A DNA stretch of 64,000 bases, from NCBI GenBank assembly GCA_031374825.1, contig JANMGV010000004.1:19605-83604 (forward strand), written 5' to 3'. Both the position numbers and the translations under genes were made by a program. The notes beneath the pieces are model-generated. The model saw nothing but the letters and a program-made list of their open reading frames with translations. It was not told the origin of the DNA and searched no databases. This document shows, piece by piece, positions 4,614-47,845 of this stretch (positions are counted from its first letter, which is position 1; each line of letters opens with the position of its first letter). Source of the DNA: Pirellulaceae bacterium. Its GTDB lineage: Bacteria; Planctomycetota; Planctomycetia; Pirellulales; Pirellulaceae.

Positions 4614-5770
4614 TTTCCATCATCCGTGTTTGGCGAGGCGAGCTTTGGCAAAGTTTTAGCATTGCCGGAAACGAGTGTATGAATCTGCCCATTGGAATCG
4701 AGCAATCGTATGCTTCGATTACCTCGATCACAAAAATATAGTCCGCCCTGAGGAGCCAACGCAATCTTTGCAGGAACAAAAAGCTCTGAACTCTCCTTGC
4801 TTTCATCGGGCTTGCTTTCACCGGGCTTGCTTTCTTTAGCAGAAGCGGAGCCTGCTACCGTCATTATCGTTCCATGAACGACCGTCCGAAGTCGATTGTT
4901 TCCGCTGTCGGAAATGTAGAAGAAATTCGGCGACACCGGCAGGATATCCAGAGCAGAGAAAATTTTTGCCTTGGTCGCTCGGTCTCCATCGCCCGACAAG
5001 CCCGCGCCACCTTCGCCTGAACCTTCTCCAATGCCGCAAACGGTCTCAATAATTCCTTCTGCAGATACACGGCGTATTCGACTATTGCCGCCTTCGCTAA
5101 TAAAGAACGATTTCTCATCGGTCCCAAACGCAACGGCCATGGGTAAGCTCAATTGTGCCGAGGTTGCTGGTCCACCGTCGCCGGATAGCCCGGGCGTCGA
5201 ACCCGCCACCGTTGTGATGACTCCGTCGATCGCAATTCGCCGTACAATATGATTGTACGTGTCCGCTATGAGAATGTTGCCTTGGGAATCGACTGCGATC
5301 CCTTGCGGGTTATTCAGCCCCGCGAGGATAGCTGGGCCACCGTCGCCGCTGAGCTCCGATCGTCCATTTCCAGCGAGTGTCTTGACAATTCTTGTTGCGA
5401 GATCAACTTGCCGGATACGATGGTTGTTTGCGTCGGCAACAAGTACTGCATTTCGAGAGCGATCAAGCTTCATGTCATGGGGTGCATGAAACGCAGACTG
5501 CAGGACATCCGCTTCCTCCCCCCGAAAAATTGGTTCGCCAGTTCCTCCCCAAAGCTGCAATTCACCAGACTGTTTGCCGGACAACTCAACTCGAAAGAGG
5601 CGATGAAGTTGAATATCGCTAATCAATAAACTGCCATCGGGTAAGGCGACTATTCCATTAGGTGCCTGAAACCGTAAACCGTCGCTATCTCCTGCATTAG
5701 TTCGCAATGCGAAACCGAAACAAATGCAGTTTATGAGCAATGCGATCAAAAACAATTGCATCATGTACAC
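4610..5770 (-). CDS. NHL-repeat beta-propeller protein, secreted, with low-complexity SKPGESKPDESK tail
   Basis: There is a signal peptide. Motifs of the form NNRIRxV / NHIVRRI / GNSRIRRV recur about every 45 aa, which is the NHL repeat pattern. Confidence 0.75.
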   Translation of the reverse strand: MYMMQLFLIALLINCICFGFALRTNAGDSDGLRFQAPNGIVALPDGSLLISDIQLHRLFRVELSGKQSGELQLWGGTGEPIFRGEEADVLQSAFHAPHDMKLDRSRNAVLVADANNHRIRQVDLATRIVKTLAGNGRSELSGDGGPAILAGLNNPQGIAVDSQGNILIADTYNHIVRRIAIDGVITTVAGSTPGLSGDGGPATSAQLSLPMAVAFGTDEKSFFISEGGNSRIRRVSAEGIIETVCGIGEGSGEGGAGLSGDGDRATKAKIFSALDILPVSPNFFYISDSGNNRLRTVVHGTIMTVAGSASAKESKPGESKPDESKESSELFVPAKIALAPQGGLYFCDRGNRSIRLLDSNGQIHTLVSGNAKTLPKLASPNTDDGK

Positions 5771-41121: not shown

Positions 41122-41217
41122 CAGCATTCGGCAACTCTCAATAAGGAATTGTCCCGAATGAACTTCCCGAATAATGAAACTTGATCGTAATGTCGATCCA
41201 GGGCACCGAGTTGCACG

Positions 41218-41280
41218 TCATTCCCGCGCAGGCGGGAATCCAGGGTCAATTGCGCTGGATTCCCGCCTGCGCGGGAATGA
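41218..41280. repeat. perfect nested palindrome (two 23-bp arms, each itself a hairpin TTCCCGCgcagGCGGGAA) between convergent genes
   Basis: cattcccgcgcaggcgggaatcc ...16 nt... ggattcccgcctgcgcgggaatg. The ORF-track translation here (IPAQAGIQG...IPACAGMT) is the hallmark spurious reading of this repeat type. Confidence 0.7.
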
Positions 41281-41352
41281 CACCGATGCTCCAAACACGG
41301 AAAATATTTCGGGACTGTTCCCTGCCAATTTTACCCCAGCTACCCCTACGTA

Positions 41353-41979
41353 CTATTGACGCAAAGGGCCATAAAGATGTTCTGTCGCGACCGTTCCGCC
41401 GCATTCAAGCCAACCATCGGTAATCGCCTCACGCCACCAATCGGGCAATTTCGTCGTTCCTGCATGGCGGTGGAAGTGTCCGTGTGGACAAGAGATCGCG
41501 AAGGTACGTCCAGCCCGATGGAAAGACACGCGAATCGCGGAATTACACCAAGGGCAACGCCAATTGTCAACAACCGACCGATCACAGCCAATTCCGATAT
41601 CTGCACAAAGTCTCGCGACCAATTTGAAGTTCCGATTGTCTCGACGTTTTGTCTCGATCGTCTCAACGGTTTCACGCAGATTCTCGAATCTGTTCGATTC
41701 GGGAGTGAATCGGACCGTTGCCTCGTAGCGATCTTTGCGGATCGAGAAACGGCGCAAGACATGCACCACCACGTCAAAATCGTTCTTTACGAGGCTCAAC
41801 GGCCCCATGAATCGTTCTTCGTTGTATCGAGATGAAACCACGCCACGTCCCGATGATGTGTGGTATTCAGGATGACACGCGATCGAACTGGTGACGTGGT
41901 GTTCGATGGCGCGCAACCAGTCCGTCGTCGCAATTTCGACGTGGTATCTTGTGACGAATTGTGGCTTCAAAGTCACCAT
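41353..41979 (-). CDS. hypothetical protein with C-terminal CPWCN...CPHGHFH zinc-ribbon (start set at internal Met)
   Basis: The ORF-track N-terminal 48 aa are translation of the IS110 left-end sequence and are shared with ORF 46387..46776. The likely real start is MVTLKPQF at 41979. Confidence 0.4.
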   Translation of the reverse strand: MVTLKPQFVTRYHVEIATTDWLRAIEHHVTSSIACHPEYHTSSGRGVVSSRYNEERFMGPLSLVKNDFDVVVHVLRRFSIRKDRYEATVRFTPESNRFENLRETVETIETKRRDNRNFKLVARLCADIGIGCDRSVVDNWRCPWCNSAIRVSFHRAGRTFAISCPHGHFHRHAGTTKLPDWWREAITDGWLECGGTVATEHLYGPLRQ

Positions 41980-41989
41980 GTCATTAGCG

Positions 41990-42400
41990 ACAGAAAGAAT
42001 CCATGAAAGTCCTGGGTTTGAGGTGGGAGCCATTTGAATATAATCTGGCGACTCGGACCCGTGATCAAGACAGTGTGACCTGTCAGTCACAAAATTTCCA
42101 ACCCCAAACCCAAAGGACAACAACTATGAAGATTCTCGCACTCGACCTCAGCAAATTCAATACGATGTGTTGCTTTTATTGATTCGAAAACTCGGAAACA
42201 TACCTTCCTGAACGCTGCAACCGACCGAAATTAAGTGGAGACCGTGTTCAAAAAACACCAAATCGACTTGGTCGCCATAGAAGCTTGTGGACCTTCGGGC
42301 TGGATCAACGACTTGGCCATCGTTTGTGCCCACAAAACCATCGTGGTGCTCGACCGTACAGCGTGCGCTTGCAACTTGCAAATTCAACGATTCAAGGGAT
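41990..42400 (+). mobile_element. truncated, frameshifted IS110-family element (left end plus first ~90 codons of transposase)
   Basis: About 130 bp are near-identical to 46553-46698. Then MKILALDL(S/G)K(F/L)NTMCCF... reads the IS110 transposase N-terminus with a 1-bp insertion and an in-frame TAA. The downstream frame reads ...ACGPSGWINDLA, then homology ends around 42400. Confidence 0.6.
42127..42400 (+). pseudogene. IS110-family transposase N-terminal fragment (pseudogene)
   Basis: See the mobile element above. The frameshift and truncation are visible by comparison with the copy at 46699. Confidence 0.55.
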
Positions 42401-42704
42401 GTTGACAGCCAATCGGCACGTCGCCAAAAGTAGATGTCAGCAGCAACGAAGAACATCTTTCCCGTCGAATCCGTGTTCCCAAGCAGATCCAATAAGTCGC
42501 GCAACTCCCTGGTCGAAGGGAGCAATGCGTTCGAATACCCTCGAGACCGAGCCCGAAAAGAGATAGCAGCTTGCTTGAACCTTGGATTAGATATCTGGCT
42601 AGTCTTCTCTGACGCCAGCTACCCCGCACTAGATCGCCTCTCTCCCTCGAGGCTCTCCCACTCCGCTCACCGCAGAATCTAGTCCTTTAAATGTTCGTCC
42701 AGAA

Positions 42705-43895
42705 TTAGTTTGGTACGATTGTATGAAGTTCGTCAATCGGTGGCTCAATGTCCGTAAATGTAGCATTCGGTACGATGGCTAGGAACCAGAAGCCACCAAG
42801 AATTGACGCAGTCAATGACGCCAGTAGCACAGATATTTGAGATATGTTTATAAGTTCTTGGTCTTCAAATGCCAACGTCGATATAAAAATCGACATCGTA
42901 AATCCGATGCCTGCCAAAATACCAGCACCAACCAAATGCGATCGGCGTAACGCGTCAGGGAGTCGTCCAAATCGAAGGAATATCGCCAACAAGCAAAAGG
43001 AGATAATGCCGAGCGGTTTCCCGACGACGAGTCCCAAGTAAATCCCGAGTGAATTGGGCTGGAGGAGTTTCCAATACCAATCGCCGTGAAGAGGAATGCA
43101 GGTATTTACAATTGCGAAAATTGGTAAAATCCCAAGAGCGACCGGATAGTGCAGTCGATGCTGTAGCCGATGAGAAATGCAATCCTCTTGTCGCTTGGAA
43201 AATGGAATGGCGAACGCAAGTAGTACGCCACCAATGGTTGCGTGAACACCCGATTGAAGAAAACACCACCACATTGCAATTCCACCGATTACGTATGGCC
43301 AAAGAAGTTGTACGCGCAGGCGATTTAAGCAGCCAAGAAATGCCAAGACGCCGAGCGCACCAAAAAGATAAGTTAGCGCAACGTCTTTGGTGTAGAAAAG
43401 GGCAATGATGACGATTGCCCCCAGATCATCCGCGATAGCCAATGCGGTGAGAAATATCTTTAGGGAGTAAGGTACCTTACTCCCAAACAAAGCGAGAACA
43501 CCCAGCGAGAAAGCAATATCGGTTGCCGTTGGAATGCCAGCACCACGTATTGTCGTCGTTCCAAGATTCAATAGGATGTGAATGAAAGCGGGTACGACCA
43601 TTCCGCCAATCGCGGCAATGACTGGCAAGGCGGCGTTCTTCCACGACGAAAGTTCGCCCTCGTAGATCTCACGTTCTAGTTCCAAGCCGATCATCAGGAA
43701 GAAGATGACCATCAAGCCATCGTTCACCCATTTTTCGATTGGCATACCAAGGAATGGCATATGGAAAAAATGCTGGAGTGTTTCGCCAAACAACGTGTTC
43801 GCTAGCAACAGCGAAACGGCGGTCGCGAACATCAGGACGAATGCACCGGATCGCTCGCTCGATACAAATTCCTTGAAAAGCTTCGTACTCAGCAT
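42705..43895 (-). CDS. nhaA: Na+/H+ antiporter NhaA
   Basis: The N-terminus is MLSTKLFKEFVSSERSGAFVLMFATAVSLLLAN. The ORF is 396 aa with 11-12 TM helices, a typical NhaA topology. Confidence 0.85.
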   Translation of the reverse strand: MLSTKLFKEFVSSERSGAFVLMFATAVSLLLANTLFGETLQHFFHMPFLGMPIEKWVNDGLMVIFFLMIGLELEREIYEGELSSWKNAALPVIAAIGGMVVPAFIHILLNLGTTTIRGAGIPTATDIAFSLGVLALFGSKVPYSLKIFLTALAIADDLGAIVIIALFYTKDVALTYLFGALGVLAFLGCLNRLRVQLLWPYVIGGIAMWWCFLQSGVHATIGGVLLAFAIPFSKRQEDCISHRLQHRLHYPVALGILPIFAIVNTCIPLHGDWYWKLLQPNSLGIYLGLVVGKPLGIISFCLLAIFLRFGRLPDALRRSHLVGAGILAGIGFTMSIFISTLAFEDQELINISQISVLLASLTASILGGFWFLAIVPNATFTDIEPPIDELHTIVPN

Positions 43896-43907
43896 CGACT
43901 ACTCCAT

Positions 43908-44337
43908 TGGACGAACGTAAAACATATTGCAATCTATGCGTCGAGGGAGGTGAGTGTTTGGCCCCGTTGGTACGCTTTTGATCCCCGGCGTATAGATTGG
44001 GCGTTGAACTGAGCCGACGGAGCGGGACGATTGATCGTTACAAGTGGCTTGGGAACGCCGATTGTGCTGCGATCGCTCAACGGAACATTAGTGTATCAAT
44101 CTGCATGCGAGTTGGCAAGTTTTTGCGACTTCGAGTCTTTTCGCCGGCGCGGGCGTTTACTTTGGAAGCGTTTGTGCTGGCTGACTTTTCAGATGCCGCA
44201 TCTAAAATCGGCTAAGCGCTCCCATCGCCGACAATCAACACAACGCATCGCCGCGAGACTAAAAGATGTCTTCGCCAGCGCGCGCCCAACATCCAACGCC
44301 CCTCCAGAAACCAAGCGCAGTCGGCTTAGTTCAACGA
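43908..44337. repeat. intergenic repeat family, copy A (abuts nhaA start codon)
   Basis: About 430 bp align to 45433-45853 and, for the first ~250 bp and last ~75 bp, to 48312-48840. The ORF-track peptides MGVELSRRSG... at three loci are the same DNA read in one frame. Confidence 0.8.
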
Positions 44338-44546
44338 CTGCCGTAACCGGGCACGCGCGAGTAGGCAACCATTTGAAAAACGCCCGATCGCGTGCTCGGG
44401 CGTATGGCTTGGATCGACACTTCGGTATGAGCACCTCTTGGTCTCCATCGATTAGGCACGTTGTAGAGTATCGCTGGGATGGGATCGTCAGCCTCGTCGT
44501 TCGTAGATGTGCTCTTCGTTATCGTGACTGTCGTGCGCTTCCGCGA

Positions 44547-44774
44547 TCATCGCATGGCGATGACGATGCCAATCGCTGCAGCAGTTACGGCCGCCACAAA
44601 CGCGACCAGAATCGCACCACTACCAATCCGCCGTCGACAAAACACCGCCATCAGAACGAGTGACGCGACCGACATGCCGAGCATTGCATATGCGTTGCCC
44701 GTTGCCGTGCCGATCAAAAGTACGATTACTGCGATCGCTCCGAGTAAGTCATCATTGCGGGAGTCTGTTGGCAT
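44547..44774 (-). CDS. small 2-TM membrane protein, hypothetical
   Basis: A hydrophobic 75-aa ORF downstream of the 4-TM gene. Confidence 0.35.
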   Translation of the reverse strand: MPTDSRNDDLLGAIAVIVLLIGTATGNAYAMLGMSVASLVLMAVFCRRRIGSGAILVAFVAAVTAAAIGIVIAMR

Positions 44775-44878
44775 TTTGTTTTCCGTTCCCCGGTCGGTTG
44801 CCGAATGTCAGAATTCAGCCAGTGCGAGCTGTAGACTCAACGCAAGTCAAAACGCCTGATCGAGCAATGGTTTGCAAT

Positions 44879-45403
44879 TCATTGTTCGTCGCTTTTTGAT
44901 GGATTGTGTTTTGGATTTGATCTCCACGTCATGACGGCAATAACCATCATCGCTACCCCACCAAGGACGTACTCGTACTGATGCGCCATAGCGACAGCGA
45001 CGAGCCGACGGTCAGACTCAAAGGTCGCGCGCCGCTGTTCGATTGGAATGATGCTTGATATTGCCATTACAGTCAGCAGAATCGCAATCATGCTCATCCA
45101 CAGTGTAACACAGGCAATCGTCGTCCATTTCAGGATTCGGATTGCCTCCAGAGGCTGTTGACGTCGGTGATTGATTGACGCGACGATCGCGCCGGCGATT
45201 GCACCAAACCACCAAGATGCAGCGACACCCCACAACAACGCCAGAACCCACGGGTTCTCCGTCGGAAGAATCTTCGGGTGATGAACTGAAAAGTACTCCA
45301 CGGCGAAATTTGCGGTGACGAGATCAAGGCAAATCCCAAGAAGGCAAGCGAGGGCAGTCGATCCAAGTACAATTGTCAGGAAACGTCGCAACGCAGCATT
45401 CAT
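44879..45403 (-). CDS. hypothetical 4-TM membrane protein
   Basis: A 174-aa ORF. Repeat copy B ends ~30 bp upstream of its start codon. Confidence 0.5.
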   Translation of the reverse strand: MNAALRRFLTIVLGSTALACLLGICLDLVTANFAVEYFSVHHPKILPTENPWVLALLWGVAASWWFGAIAGAIVASINHRRQQPLEAIRILKWTTIACVTLWMSMIAILLTVMAISSIIPIEQRRATFESDRRLVAVAMAHQYEYVLGGVAMMVIAVMTWRSNPKHNPSKSDEQ

Positions 45404-45432
45404 TAGACGACCTCGTGACGAACTCCATTGAT

Positions 45433-45853
45433 TGACGAACGTATTGCAATCTATTCGTCAAGGGAGTTTGGTTGTTGGCCCCAAGTAGGTTTATGATCCC
45501 CGACGTATAGATTGGGCGTTGAACTGAGCCGACGGAGTGGTACGATCAATCGATGCAAGTGGCTTGCGAACGCCAAATGTGCTGCGACGGCTCTGCTGAG
45601 AGTCAGTGTATCAATCCGAATGCGCGTTGGCAAGTTTTTGCGAATCCGAGTCTATGGGTGGGCGCAGGTTTTGACTCTGGAAAAACTTGTGCTGGCTGAT
45701 TTTTCAGATGCCGCATCTAAAATCGGCTAAGCGCTCCCATCGCCGACAATCAACACAACGCATCGCCGCGAGACTAAAAGATGTCTTCGCCAGCGCGCGT
45801 CCAAAGTCCACTGCCCCTCCAGAAACCAAACACAGTCGGCTTAGTTCGACGAA
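45433..45853. repeat. intergenic repeat family, copy B
   Basis: See copy A. Copy B contains the same 13-bp perfect palindrome agatgccgcatct (45706-45718). Confidence 0.8.
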
Positions 45854-45858
45854 GGCGA

Positions 45859-46077
45859 TCACCCAGCAGCCGGAGGTGAAGCACCATCAGGCAAACCGAG
45901 GACCGGCGGCTTGGGGTCAGCGCGTTGTTCGGACCTCCACGGTCTACGCGGCATCGAAACGGTATTTGTTTCTCGCGATCGTGCATCCGCGACGATCCTG
46001 CTTAAGTCGTTGTCAAACCTTGCTGCGAGTTCTCGTTTAATTCGCAGAATCTCGTCGTTAATGGTGTCCATTGTCAA
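45859..46077 (-). CDS. small ORF overlapping PIN-like gene by 4 bp (possible TA partner), only N-terminal ~36 aa look protein-like
   Basis: The N-terminus reads MTMDTINDEILRIKRELAARFDNDLSRIVADARSRE. There is an ATGA overlap with the upstream gene. The C-terminal part runs into repeat B. Confidence 0.3.
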   Translation of the reverse strand: MTMDTINDEILRIKRELAARFDNDLSRIVADARSRETNTVSMPRRPWRSEQRADPKPPVLGLPDGASPPAAG

Positions 46078-46547
46078 TTCCCCAAGAGTTCATCTGGCGA
46101 ACAAATCAGCGGTGGCGTACAACCGAAGTCCTGGCAAATCTGCTCGATTACCAGTCTCGTTTCAGCGTTCGCGATGTGCGTGAAATTTAGCGTCAGCAAA
46201 TATTGTATCCCATTGATTGCTGCAAGGGATATGTGGAGTGCGTCCCGTGGTTCCGTCGCAGGAATCCCTTGACGCGACACCAGTTCGTATGCCAATGCCC
46301 TTGCATCGTCCGTGATGGCCAAGACGGATATTCCAGCAATTAAGGCCAGTCGATCGGCAGCCGCCGTGGAGTCCCCCGCAGAGCATTCATCGACCACGAT
46401 TTGCGAGACTGCGAGCTCGAATCGATCTCGCTTCGCCCACCATCGACGAGACTGAATTTGCCGAGCGGCGACAAGGATGTCCGTCTGGTCCCAAGCGGCG
46501 ATATGACCGATGACTATTGTTTCGATATAGACTGTCGGCTTGCTCAT
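46074..46547 (-). CDS. hypothetical protein, possibly PIN-like nuclease (toxin-like)
   Basis: A 157-aa acidic alpha/beta-type sequence. An IS110 copy lies ~5 bp upstream of its start codon. I could not confirm the domain by eye. Confidence 0.4.
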   Translation of the reverse strand: MSKPTVYIETIVIGHIAAWDQTDILVAARQIQSRRWWAKRDRFELAVSQIVVDECSAGDSTAAADRLALIAGISVLAITDDARALAYELVSRQGIPATEPRDALHISLAAINGIQYLLTLNFTHIANAETRLVIEQICQDFGCTPPLICSPDELLGN

Positions 46548-46698
46548 AGTCCCTTATGTCCGAAAGAACCCATATAAGTCCTGGGTTTGGGCTAGGAGCC
46601 CTTCGAATAAAATCTGGCGACTCGGACCCGTGATCAAGACAGTGTGACCTATCAGTCACATTCATTCCAACCCCAACCCCAAACCCAAAGGACATGTC

Positions 46699-47514
46699 TA
46701 TGAAAATTCTCGCACTCGACCTTGGCAAACTCAATACGATGTGCTGCTTTTTTGAATCGAAAACGCGTAAACACACCTTTCACAACGCTGCAACAGGCCG
46801 AAACTACCTGGAGACCGTGTTCAAAAAATACAAAATCGACATGGTCGCCACGGAAGCCGATTGAAGTGTGAATTCAGAATTGCGAAGTGTGAAACGTCGA
46901 AGTGTCACCAGGCGAGAGGCGTCAAACTTCAAACTTCAAACTTCAAACTTCAAACTTCAAACAAGGACAATGCCCTCAAACTTGCTCGCATGGCCTCCAT
47001 GAACGAACTCAAAGCCGTCCATATGCCCAGCGAAGAACATCGCGAGTTCCGGTCGCTGGTCAAGAACCGTAAAACACTCGACTACCGCATCAACAAGATG
47101 AAATGCACCATACGCGCTTGGTTCGGCAATCATGGCATCACGATTGACGCAGGCGATAAAGTTTGGCACACGGGACGCCAACTCATCGACTCCTTCCGCA
47201 AACCGTTTGTCGACTGCTCCGCAAACGAACTTTGGAAAGGCAAACTCGACATCGAACTAACCCAACTCGATGCACTCACCACACAACTTGACATCGTAGT
47301 CAAGAAACTCGAAGCCATCGGCAAGAAAGATCCACGCATCGCGCGAGTCCAAACGATCCCCGGCGTTGGACCACGAACCGCCGAAATCCTCGTTGCATGT
47401 ATCGACAATCCGCACCGCTTTGAGAACGGTCGCCAAGTATCCGCCTACTTTGGACTGATACCCCGCCAATACCAATCCGGTGAAACGGACCGCAACGGTC
47501 GCATCAAACTGTAA
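46699..47514 (+). pseudogene. IS110-family transposase, interrupted (internal ~40 codons replaced, frame broken)
   Basis: Compared with intact IS110 transposases, the DEDD-domain segment between ...DMVATEA and LKLA..MNELKAVHMPSEEHREFR is missing and replaced. Confidence 0.65.
46923..46955. repeat. (CAAACTT)n heptanucleotide microsatellite, ~4.7 units, inside the IS110 transposase pseudogene
   Basis: The sequence reads caaacttcaaacttcaaacttcaaacttcaaac. Confidence 0.9.
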
Positions 47515-47845
47515 ATTATTTTGATGCTTCGCCCTGGGAAGCCAATCCTCGCCGTCCTCCATTCAACGAGATCACAGGAGACTTTTTCGATCTACACAAC
47601 GACAGAGACCAGTAGCCGGACCATCAAAGAAAGCAGTAGACTGCTGTAACCGAATTTGACCGCATTGTCATTAAACCGTCAGAGTCTAACCGTGGCTGTT
47701 TTCCTCAAACCTCATTACTCAAGCCGCACACCTGTCCACCGACCCGTGCATGGATAACTGAGCAAACGCATCCTGCTAAAGCGCAGGACCATTAGAGCGA
47801 AAAGCGTTTACACCTTCTTCATCGGCGATAAGTCTTACCACTAGC

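What the first reader, a model, noticed from the sequence alone, without database searches (positions are those of the whole stretch)
41990..47620. Two degraded IS110-family copies, each inserted within ~10 bp upstream of a gene start, with the fuller copy interrupted by a (CAAACTT)n microsatellite segment
The ~130-bp left end and the transposase start MKILALDL(G/S)K(L/F)NTMCCF occur twice, at 41990-42400 and 46553-47514.

Copy 1 is truncated after about 90 codons. It carries a 1-bp insertion and an in-frame TAA.

Copy 2 has the full C-terminal Transposase_20 region. About 40 codons of its DEDD domain are replaced by ~115 bp of unrelated sequence containing caaactt x4.7, and the reading frame is broken.

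Both copies end 5-12 bp before the start codon of a minus-strand gene (41979 and 46547) and lie antisense to it. IS110-family elements are known for site-specific insertion and for forming promoters. This placement suggests insertion into a recurring target sequence near gene starts. The ORF-track N-terminal extensions of 41353..42123 and 46387..46776 are artefacts of reading through these IS ends.
Basis: partly seen in the sequence, partly recalled or inferred. Interest (0 to 1): 0.55.

Follow-up and report, generated by a model that had tools for sequence, protein, structure and literature searches.

The report
Dead attC-targeting IS1111 copies in cassette array
These are two decayed copies of an RNA-guided IS1111-type insertion sequence that homes to the boundary of integron-style (attC-like) recombination sites in a Pirellula-type planctomycete gene-cassette array, which is why each sits about 14 bases in front of the next gene; a known kind of element in a new host group, and the copies here are dead.

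Summary
The repeat is real. Two copies of the left end and transposase N-terminus of an IS110/IS1111-family element lie at 41994-~42350 and 46563-47815.

- Copy 1 keeps about 75 codons.
- Copy 2 lacks codons ~54-93, which are replaced by ~105 bp containing (TCAAACT)x5.9.
- Copy 2 also lacks the last ~160 codons, most of the 3' non-coding region and the right end.
- Neither copy can move.

Intact relatives (~2.1-2.3 kb, Pirellulaceae) have IS1111-type subterminal inverted repeats and a long 3' non-coding region.

The closeness to gene starts has a specific cause. In 45 of 53 distinct metagenomic right-end junctions, and in 8 of 11 genomic ones, the element abuts a ~90-nt covarying imperfect palindrome. 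It does so in one register and one orientation.

That palindrome forms arrays at about 500-650 bp spacing between small same-strand genes. It has AAC/GTT end boxes. As a family it matches the published Planctomycetes attC profile on the gene strand only.

The insertion point is the site boundary that faces the next gene. No integron integrase was found, so calling these sites attC is an inference.

The (CAAACTT)n variant recurs at other loci in other assemblies, so it is a lineage and not a local accident. I found no evidence that the element forms a promoter.

The parts
41980..41993 (.). Left flank of copy 1. These 14 nt lie between the start codon of gene 41353-41979 and the IS left end. I read them as the distal half of the split site box (GCGACAG|AA).
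   Evidence: Left flanks of relatives end in (G)nCG, the same as the bases that precede the AAC box of uninterrupted sites.
41994..42126 (+). Copy 1, left end: 7-nt terminal extension AAAGAAT, subterminal inverted repeat CCATGAAAGTCCTGGGTT, and the 5' non-coding region.
   Evidence: Alignment to intact relatives, end definition, blastn 41993-42356 against 14 loci.
42127..42350 (+). Copy 1, transposase N-terminal pseudogene. It covers about aa 1-75 of the DEDD/RuvC-like domain, with a 1-bp insertion at ~42179 and an in-frame TAA at 42232-42234. Homology ends at ~42344-42356.
42351..42704 (.). About 350 bp of unassigned sequence between the truncated copy 1 and the stop codon of the NhaA gene. 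A possible remnant of a site end box (ATGTTCGTC, ~42690-42698) lies 7 nt from that stop codon. The rest of the IS and the body of the site are missing.
   Evidence: No blastn match to any locus, no Pfam hit on its ORFs, no covariance-model hit. The box remnant was read by eye and is weak evidence.
41353..41979 (-). Gene of 208 aa, function unknown, directly downstream of copy 1 and antisense to it. The listed longer ORF 41353-42123 is an artefact of reading into the IS end.
   Evidence: no family hit. The upstream part of the long ORF is IS left-end sequence.
46548..46562 (.). Left flank of copy 2. These 15 nt lie between the PIN gene start codon and the IS left end (…TTATGTCCG|AA).
46563..46699 (+). 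Copy 2, left end and 5' non-coding region.
46700..46858 (+). Copy 2, transposase codons 1-53.
46859..46964 (+). Replacement segment standing in for codons ~54-93. It has ~63 nt of unassigned sequence, then (TCAAACT)x5.9 at 46922-46962. The segment is lineage-specific and not unique to this locus.
   Evidence: Tandem Repeats Finder, protein alignment. L005 has the same segment with ~20 repeat units. L006 has ~5 units and a different left junction. A hairpin reading was rejected.
46965..47506 (+). Copy 2, transposase codons ~94-273. This covers the end of the DEDD domain, the coiled-coil region and the first two thirds of Transposase_20 including the QSG motif. The ORF stops at GRIKL*.
   Evidence: Pfam hit at profile positions 3-57 of 87, alignment A2, blastn.
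47507..47642 (.). 136 nt with no detectable similarity to relatives. This is the deletion or rearrangement junction.
   Evidence: no match.
47643..47815 (+). Copy 2, fragment of the element's 3' non-coding region. It includes the first two thirds of the conserved structured core (CCGTGCATGGATAACTGAG…GCGTTTACACCT), the candidate seekRNA/bridge-RNA region. It is cut before CGAATAGTCGC… and lacks the right end.
46074..46547 (-). PIN-domain gene of 157 aa directly downstream of copy 2, followed by the small ORF 45859-46077. It is a toxin-antitoxin-like cassette.
   Evidence: Pfam PIN, E 8e-7.
44803..44896 (+). Uninterrupted attC-type site: the palindrome, with its folding strand on +. It lies between the stop of gene 44879-45403 and the start of gene 44547-44774. 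It shows what the IS target looks like when empty.
   Evidence: Covariance model R1, 83.9 bits; alignments.
44332..44424 (+). attC-type site abutting the right end of repeat R1.
   Evidence: Model R1, 68.2 bits.
45847..45939 (+). attC-type site abutting the right end of repeat R2. It overlaps the 3' end of ORF 45859-46077.
   Evidence: Model R1, 58.6 bits. It scores 6.5 bits on the published Planctomycetes attC profile in minus orientation.

Best explanation
Both features are dead remnants of an IS1111-type member of the IS110 superfamily, which uses an RNA-guided DEDD transposase.

**How an intact element is built and moves**
- An intact element is ~2.1-2.3 kb.
- It has a 7-nt left extension and a 3-nt right extension outside subterminal inverted repeats.
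- It encodes a ~430-445-aa transposase.
- It has a ~620-890-nt 3' non-coding region with a conserved structured core. By analogy with studied IS1111 elements, this core would give the guide (seek/bridge) RNA.
- The lineage inserts site-specifically and in one orientation into a ~90-nt imperfect-palindrome site. These sites separate small same-strand genes in long arrays in Pirellulaceae genomes.
- The insertion point is at the AAC box on the strand that carries the transposase gene. This corresponds to G|TT of the R' box on the gene strand. It is the site boundary that faces the next gene, and the transposase runs antisense to the array genes.
- In these arrays the boundary lies only ~12-40 nt before the next start codon. 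Every insertion therefore lands right in front of a gene.

**Shown versus inferred**
- Shown: the element family, its ends, the junction register and orientation, the array architecture, and the covarying structure of the site.
- Shown only at family level: the orientation-specific similarity to the published Planctomycetes attC profile.
- Inferred: that the sites are functional integron attC sites. No integrase was found, so the window region would be a cluster of attC sites without integrase.
- Inferred: that the 3' core is the guide RNA.
- Inferred: the order of decay, given below.

**Decay after insertion**
- Each copy lost its right part together with the body of the site.
- Deletions toward the right remove only IS and site DNA. 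Deletions toward the left would destroy the adjacent gene. This would explain why only left ends survive.
- Copy 2 descends from an already defective lineage that carries the (CAAACTT)n replacement. That lineage must have been mobilised in trans, because the same replacement sits at different loci in other assemblies.
For: **Family**
- Pfam, NCBIfam and homologue searches place it in the IS110 family.
- Solved relatives are the ISCro4 and IS621 transposases.

**Ends**
- Three identical copies in Pirellulaceae SH449 define AAAGAATCC… to …GGACTTCATAGTC.
- The subterminal inverted repeats and the 7/3-nt extensions fit the IS1111 rule described in PMC11187229.
- The long non-coding region lies downstream of the transposase gene.

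**Target**
- An RNAalifold fold of 15 sites gives a 15-bp stem, with 11 pairs showing compensatory change.
- On 38 sites, 94.2% of cells are paired against 62.7% in shuffles. The covariation score is 0.721 against 0.183, and 0.03-0.10 when partners are slid.
- In 14 genomic loci, 37 of 38 sites are on the IS strand. In three 21-kb loci the count is 49 of 49. In 61 metagenome loci it is 161 of 161.
- The right end abuts the site in one register at 8 of 11 genomic junctions. The same holds at 51 of 59 metagenomic junctions, which is 45 of 53 distinct flanks.

**Array architecture**
- Modal site spacing is 500-650 bp.
- 26 of 48 sites have a gene start within 60 nt on one side. 28 of 48 have a stop within 60 nt on the other.
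- Cassette-type gene content is present: toxin-antitoxin genes, SUKH, 23S_rRNA_IVP and many genes with no Pfam family.

**attC likeness**
- The end boxes are …AAC and GTT….
- Two bulged bases 8 nt (9 alignment columns) apart always lie on the arm next to the upstream gene's stop codon.
- A conserved G-T pair is possible only on the + (bottom) strand.
- I rebuilt the published Planctomycetes attC profile HMM (PMC8352920 supplement) and scored 65 sites. On the gene strand, 34 of 65 reach 5 bits or more. On the opposite strand 0 of 65 do, and among shuffled sequences 0 of 195 do.
- Integrons are reported in Planctomycetes.

**Gene-start proximity elsewhere**
- 27 of 30 distinct left-end junctions have an antisense ORF start within 200 nt, median 22 nt.

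**Variant lineage**
- Searches show the replacement segment at other loci.
Against: - No integron integrase was found in the window. Only ten ORFs of 300-400 aa were scanned, and other ORFs were not.
- None was found in the 21-kb loci either. The only tyrosine recombinase seen is Xer-like, sits next to an IS91, and scores 127.6 bits against a 265-bit cut-off for integron integrase.
- The window's own three sites score poorly one by one on the published attC profile: 6.5 bits, 1.3 bits and no report.
- A window-wide nhmmer search and a rigid end-block score were not above chance.
- Only the sequence filter of the published model could be run, not its structure part.
- The central part of the site is more conserved in sequence than is usual for attC.
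- In the window itself the right ends and site bodies of both copies are gone. Their original insertion into such sites is inferred from relatives and from the short left flanks.
- Eight of 53 metagenomic junctions and 3 of 11 genomic junctions show no detectable site.
- The exact strand-exchange position cannot be read from sequence. Boundaries defined by identity put IS bases AAA and GTC where the empty site has AAC.
Confidence: 0.75

Rival explanations
1. The ~90-nt palindromes are not integron attC sites. They are a REP-like or terminator-like intergenic repeat family of Pirellulaceae, and the IS is a REP-targeting IS1111 element like ISPa11. Everything else stays the same: site-specific, orientation-specific insertion that happens to lie before gene starts.
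For: - No integrase was found.
- The central sequence is conserved across genera.
- The window's own sites score weakly on the published attC profile.
- IS1111 members that target REP sequences are documented (PMC11187229).
Against: - The arrays contain tens of sites, all in one orientation, at cassette-like spacing, each separating single small unrelated genes.
- The sites have AAC/GTT end boxes, asymmetric bulges on the arm next to the stop codon, and a G-T pair specific to one strand.
- The family shows a strand-specific match to the Planctomycetes attC profile: 34 of 65 against 0 of 65 and 0 of 195.
Confidence: 0.2
2. The element recognises a sequence feature of gene starts themselves, in the 5' UTR or start region. 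It is kept there because its left end supplies an outward promoter for the downstream gene.
For: - Left ends lie 14-15 nt from start codons here, and a median of 22 nt elsewhere.
- Both window copies retain the left end while the rest has decayed.
- An outward promoter has been suggested for IS1111-attC elements (PMC3001079).
Against: - The conserved part of the target lies on the other side of the element. It is the right flank, which is the body of the site. The left flanks share only about 4 nt.
- In SH449 the left ends are not next to antisense gene starts.
- No promoter-like site was found on the minus strand in either left end.
- For the known IS1111-attC elements the proposed promoter was either not tested or tested negative.
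- Survival of left ends is explained more simply by selection against deletions that run into the gene.
Confidence: 0.08
3. Chance. Two unrelated decayed IS copies happen to lie in short intergenic spacers, because insertions inside genes are purged.
For: With only two copies in the window, the coincidence taken alone would be only moderately unlikely.
Against: The same junction register and orientation recur in 45 of 53 distinct independent junctions, and all 161 sites share the IS's strand.
Confidence: 0.02

Closest known systems
IS1111-attC group (ISPa21, ISPst6, ISKpn4, ISPa25) of the IS1111 family
   Same: - DEDD plus Transposase_20 transposase.
- Subterminal inverted repeats with short asymmetric extensions.
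- Long non-coding region downstream of the transposase gene.
- Site-specific and orientation-specific insertion into attC-type sites of cassette arrays.
- Transposase antisense to the cassette genes (PMC3001079; PMC11187229).
   Different: - The host is Planctomycetota (Pirellulaceae), not Proteobacteria.
- The transposase is ~90-100 aa longer, with a basic C-terminal tail.
- The 3' non-coding region is ~620-890 nt.
- The known group is described as inserting near the 5' end of attC. This lineage sits at the opposite end, at or within 2 nt of the G|TT boundary that faces the next cassette.
- Relatedness to the IS1111-attC transposases was not tested here.
ISEc11 / ISPa11 and seekRNA-guided IS1111 elements; IS621 / ISCro4 bridge-RNA recombinases
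   Same: - Same protein family. PDB hits are 9t56 (ISCro4) at E 1e-19 and 8wt6 (IS621) at E 4e-18, over the C-terminal domain.
- NCBIfam names the family 'IS110 family RNA-guided transposase'.
- A conserved structured core lies in the non-coding region.
   Different: - The guide RNA here is only inferred. No RNA data are available, no Rfam family matched, and covariation is limited (6 pairs among 6 sequences).
- IS621-type elements carry the RNA upstream of the gene and lack subterminal repeats.
Integron cassette arrays without a nearby integrase (CALIN) and sedentary chromosomal integrons
   Same: - Arrays of single small ORFs, each followed by a ~90-nt imperfect palindrome with AAC/GTT boxes and asymmetric bulges.
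- Toxin-antitoxin cassettes are present.
- IS elements inside such arrays are common (PMC4889954).
   Different: - No IntI or attI was identified.
- The match to the published Planctomycetes attC model was shown only with its sequence filter and only at family level.
- Some units carry a ~420-510-bp repeated leader.

Membership tests
IS110 superfamily (DEDD transposase elements) | Transposase with an N-terminal DEDD/RuvC-like domain (PF01548) and a C-terminal Transposase_20 domain (PF02371). | tested here: met
   - Copy 2 hits PF02371 at E 9e-17, partial (profile 3-57 of 87). PF01548 appears only as a weak trace.
- Intact relatives at 64-77% identity carry both domains.
- NCBIfam NF033542 scores 236 bits against a cut-off of 140 on relative P0054.
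- The copy 1 fragment has no Pfam hit of its own, but is 72% identical to an intact relative (P0001) where the two align (A2).
IS1111 family (as separated from IS110 by Siddiquee et al. 2024) | Subterminal inverted repeats of ~11-13 bp, with terminal extensions of 7 (or 6) bp on the left and 3 bp on the right. | tested here: met
   - Left end: AAAGAAT + CCATGTAAGTCCTGGGTT.
- Right end: AACCCAGGACTT-CATAG + GTC.
- Ends were defined from three identical copies.
- The rule comes from PMC11187229.
- The window copies keep only the left repeat.
IS1111 family | The longer non-coding region lies downstream of the transposase gene and yields the seekRNA. | tested here: inconclusive
   - A downstream non-coding region of ~620-890 nt, with a conserved core, is present in intact relatives.
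- A consensus fold exists, but covariation is limited.
- No RNA evidence is available.
- A ~135-nt upstream non-coding region also exists.
IS1111 family | Site-specific and orientation-specific insertion without target duplication. | tested here: met
   - One register was seen in 45 of 53 distinct metagenomic junctions and in 8 of 11 genomic junctions.
- One orientation was seen in 161 of 161 sites.
- No direct repeat flanks the three identical copies.
IS1111-attC subgroup | The transposase falls in the monophyletic IS1111-attC clade. | not tested
IS1111-attC subgroup | Insertion near the 5' end of attC, antisense to the cassettes. | tested here: not met
   The antisense orientation is met. 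The position is the opposite end of the site, the one facing the next gene (compared with the description in PMC3001079). The element therefore works like an IS1111-attC element, but I do not file it as a member of that subgroup.
Integron attC site | Imperfect palindrome of ~57-141 nt with terminal boxes RYYYAAC … GTTRRRY that pair. | tested here: met
   - Length is ~90 nt.
- The AAC box is present at 29/37, 28/37 and 36/37 for its three positions. The GTT box is present at 37/37, 31/37 and 34/37.
- The boxes are mutually complementary (GACGAAC / GTTCGTC).
- The positions outside AAC/GTT fit the R/Y consensus only loosely.
Integron attC site | Conserved folded structure with extrahelical bases on one arm, which gives strand selectivity. 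| tested here: met
   - The stem is 15 bp and 94% paired, and 12 pairs show compensatory change.
- Two bulged bases 8 nt (9 alignment columns) apart are always on the arm next to the upstream stop codon.
- A conserved G-T pair is possible only on the bottom strand.
- The identity of the bulged bases differs from what I recall as canonical.
Integron attC site | Recognised by an attC covariance model (IntegronFinder or the taxon-specific model). | tested here: inconclusive
   - Only the HMM filter of the published Planctomycetes model could be rebuilt and run.
- The family-level result is clear and strand-specific: 34 of 65 against 0 of 65 and 0 of 195.
- The window's three sites scored 6.5 bits, 1.3 bits and no report.
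- Window-wide scans were not significant.
Integron (complete) | An IntI integrase and an attI site at the head of the array. | tested here: not met
   - None was found among ten window ORFs of 300-400 aa. Other window ORFs were not scanned.
- None was found in 64 kb of related loci.
- The window region can at most be an integrase-less cluster of such sites.
- Whole genomes could not be searched.

The most novel reading that the evidence does not exclude
Pirellulaceae carry an IS1111 lineage whose guide RNA has been tuned to the exact crossover point (G|TT of R') of their chromosomal integron attC sites. It would then act as a dedicated parasite of cassette arrays, with three effects. It splits the recombination site. 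It fuses neighbouring cassettes into units that cannot be excised. It leaves left-end stubs that now serve as the only 5' leaders, and possibly promoters, of the downstream cassette genes. The repeated ~420-510-bp leaders next to other sites would be a second element exploiting the same boundary.
Probability: 0.12. Interest if true: 0.6.

Novelty: new member of a known kind. Interest (0 to 1): 0.38.

Why it matters
**For annotation**
- The two remnants, and the ORFs called across them, should be marked as IS pseudogenes. One 171-aa product identical to part of copy 2 is already in public protein sets (P0113).
- Bases 41-49 kb should be recognised as a cassette-array-like island between housekeeping genes.

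**For biology**
- The result extends the attC-homing lifestyle of RNA-guided IS1111 elements to Planctomycetota.
- It points to a different docking point, the cassette boundary itself.
- The roughly 60 distinct natural right-end junctions collected here form a ready data set for working out which part of the 3' non-coding RNA reads the target.
- An insertion at this point should block cassette excision and cut the downstream cassette off from upstream transcription. Such elements may therefore shape which cassettes stay fixed and expressed.

None of this overturns current understanding.

Tried and rejected
- **Rfam.** An E-value-mode scan of 41-49 kb found nothing in the IS ends or in the palindromes. 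The only hits were chance microRNA-like matches to a perfect hairpin at 41211-41291.
- **Hairpin reading of the (CAAACTT)n segment.** I tested whether degenerate GAAGTGT units pair with the CAAACTT units. DNA folds are no better than shuffles, with z of -0.6 and +0.8. Rejected.
- **Outward promoter in the left ends.** No consensus match was found on the minus strand. The scan covers sigma-70-type sites only, and planctomycete promoters may differ.
- **Integron integrase.**
  - Ten window ORFs of 300-400 aa are housekeeping enzymes or have no Pfam hit.
  - The split recombinase in L017 is Xer-like and IS91-associated.
  - Extending three loci to 21 kb did not reach an array head.
- **Published attC profile on the window.**
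  - A window-wide nhmmer search gave only E 0.59 at one site.
  - A rigid three-block score of the model ends was within the null.
  - The informative test was the family-level, strand-controlled comparison.
- **The 350 bp between copy 1 and NhaA, and the 136 nt at 47507-47642.** No similarity to any fetched locus and no Pfam hit.
- **The window's own assembly.**
  - An exact look-up of P0113 returned nothing.
  - The genome scan did not return the window's own genome.
- **Tetu & Holmes 2008.** This primary description of IS1111-attC is not held in the library. Its content is cited only through PMC3001079.

Full report
**1. The observation**

The window holds two direct-repeat copies of the same sequence.
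- The repeat finder reports 41993-42114 / 46562-46683 at 88% identity, 42098-42177 / 46672-46751 at 79%, and 42175-42284 / 46748-46857 at 84%.
- A pairwise alignment shows similarity starting just after the start codons of two minus-strand genes and ending at ~42290 / ~46860.
- Both copies open an ORF with MKILALDL(S/G)K(F/L)NTMCCF.
- Copy 2 has a perfect heptamer array, 5.9 units of TCAAACT at 46922-46962.

**2. What the element is**

- The long ORF of copy 2 hits Pfam Transposase_20 at E 9e-17. The match covers only profile positions 3-57 of 87. There is just a trace of the DEDD domain.
- A search with the reconstructed protein found 2249 homologues.
  - The best 120 are 64-77% identical.
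  - Most are 430-445 aa and carry PF01548 plus PF02371.
  - Where named, they are 'IS110 family transposase' from Pirellula/Pirellulaceae.
- Alignment to six intact relatives shows the state of each copy.
  - Copy 1 keeps residues 1-~75.
  - Copy 2 keeps residues 1-53, lacks ~54-93, keeps ~94-273, and lacks the last ~160 residues.
- The claim that copy 2 has the full C-terminal region is therefore wrong.

**3. Element ends**

- Three identical copies in Pirellulaceae SH449 (L011-L013) differ from each other exactly outside AAAGAATCCATGTAAGTCC… and …GGACTTCATAGTC.
- All other relatives lose similarity at the same left point.
- The ends carry subterminal inverted repeats, (C)CATGTAAGTCCTGGGTT and AACCCAGGACTT-CATAG, with 7 nt outside on the left and 3 nt on the right. 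This is the rule given for the IS1111 family by Siddiquee et al. (PMC11187229).
- As in that family, the long non-coding region (~620-890 nt) lies downstream of the transposase gene. It has a strongly conserved core with a plausible fold.
- In the window the left ends are at 41994 and 46563, which is 14 and 15 nt from the start codons at 41979 and 46547.
Bases 47643-47815 match the 3' non-coding region of relatives and stop in the middle of the conserved core.
- No right end or right inverted repeat exists anywhere in the window. Both copies are immobile.

**4. The microsatellite segment**

- Locus L005 comes from a different Pirellula assembly and has different flanks. It carries the same ~63-nt unassigned stretch and the same junctions as copy 2, but with ~20 heptamer units.
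- L006 has ~5 units, the same right junction and a different left junction.
- The unit TCAAACT also occurs in the coding sequence 20 nt downstream (…GCACTCAAACTTGC…). The array may have grown from that motif; this is inference.
- The replacement thus marks a defective lineage that spread to several loci. Its spread was presumably mobilised in trans. It is not an accident at this locus.
- A hairpin reading of the segment was tested and rejected.
- Other internally deleted derivatives exist. L007, for example, is 670 bp with both ends.

**5. Why the copies sit in front of genes**

The right flanks of intact copies are similar to each other. A blastn of the window region against the fetched loci linked these flanks to window 44802-44890.

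Alignment showed a ~90-nt imperfect palindrome.
- Its consensus fold has a 15-bp stem, with compensatory changes in 11 pairs among 15 copies.
- On 38 copies, 94% of cells pair against 63% in shuffles. The covariation score is 0.72 against 0.18 in shuffles and 0.03-0.10 when partners are slid. That alignment was fitted to the model, which favours the structure somewhat.

A covariance model built from 15 copies found sites as follows.
- Three sites in the window, at 44803-44896, 44332-44424 and 45847-45939, all on the + strand. All three were among the model's 15 training copies, so they match by construction. The search's own finding is that the window holds no further site.
- 38 sites in 14 genomic loci, 37 of them on the strand of the IS.
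- 49 of 49 on the IS strand in three 21-kb loci.
- 161 of 161 on the IS strand in 61 metagenome contigs that were fetched only by an exact match to the IS right end.

The right end of the IS abuts the site in one fixed register.
- This holds at 8 of 11 genomic junctions.
- It holds at 51 of 59 metagenomic junctions with enough flank, which is 45 of 53 distinct flanks.

The sites form arrays.
- Modal spacing is 500-650 bp.
- Small genes lie on the opposite strand. A stop codon lies within 60 nt of one end of the site in 28 of 48 cases. A start codon lies within 60 nt of the other end in 26 of 48 cases, often at 12-31 nt.
- The IS always occupies the end that faces the next gene's start.
- Among 30 distinct left-end junctions, 27 have an antisense ORF of 50 aa or more starting within 200 nt. 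The median distance is 22 nt.

It follows from the position of the target, not from recognition of gene starts.

**6. What the site is**

Its features are those of an integron attC site.
- Length is about 90 nt.
- The terminal boxes end in AAC and begin with GTT, and they are mutually complementary.
- A spacer of about five nt follows, then a stem.
- Two bulged bases 8 nt (9 alignment columns) apart are always on the arm next to the upstream gene's stop codon.
- A conserved G-T pair is possible only on the strand opposite the genes. For attC, I recall this as the strand that folds and recombines (my own knowledge).

The gene content also fits sedentary chromosomal integron arrays. It includes PIN, ParE and antitoxin genes, SUKH, 23S_rRNA_IVP, and mostly genes without a family. 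Integrons and taxon-specific attC models are reported for Planctomycetes.

I rebuilt the HMM filter of the published 'Planctomycetes' attC covariance model from the paper's supplement.
- Of 65 uninterrupted sites, 34 score 5 bits or more and 21 score 10 bits or more in the gene-strand orientation.
- On the opposite strand, 0 of 65 reach 5 bits. Among shuffled versions, 0 of 195 do.

The limits of this test are as follows.
- The window's own three sites score 6.5 bits, 1.3 bits and no report.
- Window-wide scans were not significant.
- The structural part of the model could not be run.
- No integron integrase was found in the window or in 64 kb of related loci.

I therefore treat 'attC-type site in an integrase-less cassette cluster' as the best reading, at about two in three. 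'REP-like repeat' is the main rival. The site-specific targeting holds under either reading.

**7. Insertion point**

- With ends defined by identity, the IS stands where the empty site has AAC. The left junction reads …(G)nCG|AAAG… and the right junction reads …AGTC|G….
- An equally valid parse assigns AA to the left flank and C to the right flank. The element then sits exactly at AA|C on its own strand, which is G|TT on the gene strand. I recall this as the canonical attC crossover point (my own knowledge).
- One relative (L010) reads GACGAACG|AATCC, which agrees with this parse.
- Sequence alone cannot fix the strand-exchange position.
- Known IS1111-attC elements are also antisense to the cassettes. 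They are described as lying near the 5' end of attC (PMC3001079). This lineage uses the other end.

**8. Map of the island**

Read along the minus strand, the region contains in order:
- the DAO-type oxidoreductase gene (50037-48835);
- repeat R3;
- gene 48325-47846;
- the copy 2 remnant (47815-46563);
- the PIN gene 46547-46074 and ORF 46077-45859;
- a site (45939-45847);
- repeat R2;
- gene 45403-44879;
- a site (44896-44803);
- gene 44774-44547;
- a site (44424-44332);
- repeat R1;
- NhaA (43895-42705);
- ~350 nt of unassigned sequence;
- the copy 1 remnant (42350-41994);
- gene 41979-41353;
- a perfect hairpin;
- zwf, on the other strand.

At both IS remnants the right end and the body of the upstream site are missing. 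Rightward deletions cost nothing, while leftward ones would hit the adjacent gene. That would explain why only left ends survive; this is inference.

**9. Function and mechanism**

- Shown: the family, the ends, target register and orientation, array context, decay state, and the variant lineage.
- Inferred from the family (PMC11187229): excision as a circle, and a guide RNA from the 3' non-coding region that pairs with both target strands.
  - The conserved core contains AAUAGUCGCY, a copy of the right-junction sequence CATAGTC|GCY.
  - This is a lead only.
- Inferred consequences: the split site can no longer serve as a cassette boundary, and the downstream genes are separated from upstream transcription. 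No promoter-like motif was found in the stubs.

**10. Verdict**

This is an ordinary class of object, dead IS copies, with an informative context. It is a new member of the known kind 'IS1111-family elements that home to attC-type sites'. It occurs in a new phylum and uses the opposite end of the site. Interest is moderate.

Noticed in passing
window 43921-44337, 45438-45850, 48314-~48830: There are three copies of a ~420-510-bp repeat, 67-86% identical.
- Each lies between an attC-type site (or the edge of the array) and the start of the next minus-strand gene.
- Two carry both 16-nt inverted repeats, GTTGAACTGAGCCGAC and GTCGGCTTAGTTCAAC; in the third only the first arm was found.
- Two carry a conserved sigma-70-like TTGCCA-17-TACACT on the gene strand.
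- Homologues lie next to arrays in L005, L006, L007 and L009.
- It could be a promoter-bearing cassette leader, an ORF-less cassette or a MITE (miniature inverted-repeat element). I did not resolve which.
   Followed up: partly
window 44803-44896, 44332-44424, 45847-45939: Three intact attC-type palindromes are the only ones in the 64-kb window, and all are on the + strand. Together with the small same-strand genes, they mark 41-49 kb as a cassette-array-like island. The island sits between zwf and a DAO-type oxidoreductase gene.
   Followed up: yes
window 41214-41283: A perfect inverted repeat with ~25-nt arms (ATTCCCGCGCAGGCGGGAATCCAG…) lies between the convergent zwf gene and gene 41353-41979. 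It gave only chance-level microRNA hits in Rfam. It is not detected as an attC-type site (7.3 bits, E 5).
   Followed up: no
L003 3864-8322 (Pirellulaceae SH467): This IS copy has a second transposase gene (488 aa, DDE_5/DDE_Tnp_1) nested in its 3' non-coding region. It also has two identical right-end sequences 469 bp apart. No palindrome is present at its junction.
   Followed up: partly
L007 1188-1859: A 670-bp internally deleted derivative of the IS. It has both ends intact and abuts a palindrome in the usual register, so it is a MITE-like non-autonomous form.
   Followed up: partly
L017 7426-8706 and 14967-17067: The same kind of array also hosts a group II intron-type reverse transcriptase gene. 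It also hosts an IS91-type transposase preceded by a split Xer-like tyrosine recombinase. That recombinase scores 127.6 bits on the integron-integrase model against a cut-off of 265.
   Followed up: partly
alignment A10, columns 22 and 107 (e.g. within window 44803-44896): One stem position of the palindrome is a conserved G-T pair in 33 of 38 copies. It can form only on the strand opposite the genes, which suggests that this strand is the one that folds.
   Followed up: no
3' non-coding core of intact relatives (e.g. L001 ~5020-5045); lost from window copy 2 after 47815: The conserved core contains CTCGAATAGTCGCY. This repeats the right-junction sequence CATAGTC|GCY and includes CGAA, the bases left of the insertion point. 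It is a candidate guide segment.
   Followed up: no
window 46997-47514: A public protein set holds a 171-aa product (P0113, NCBI, on a 188,631-bp contig) that is 100% identical to part of the copy 2 ORF. The fragment has therefore been annotated as a gene.
   Followed up: no
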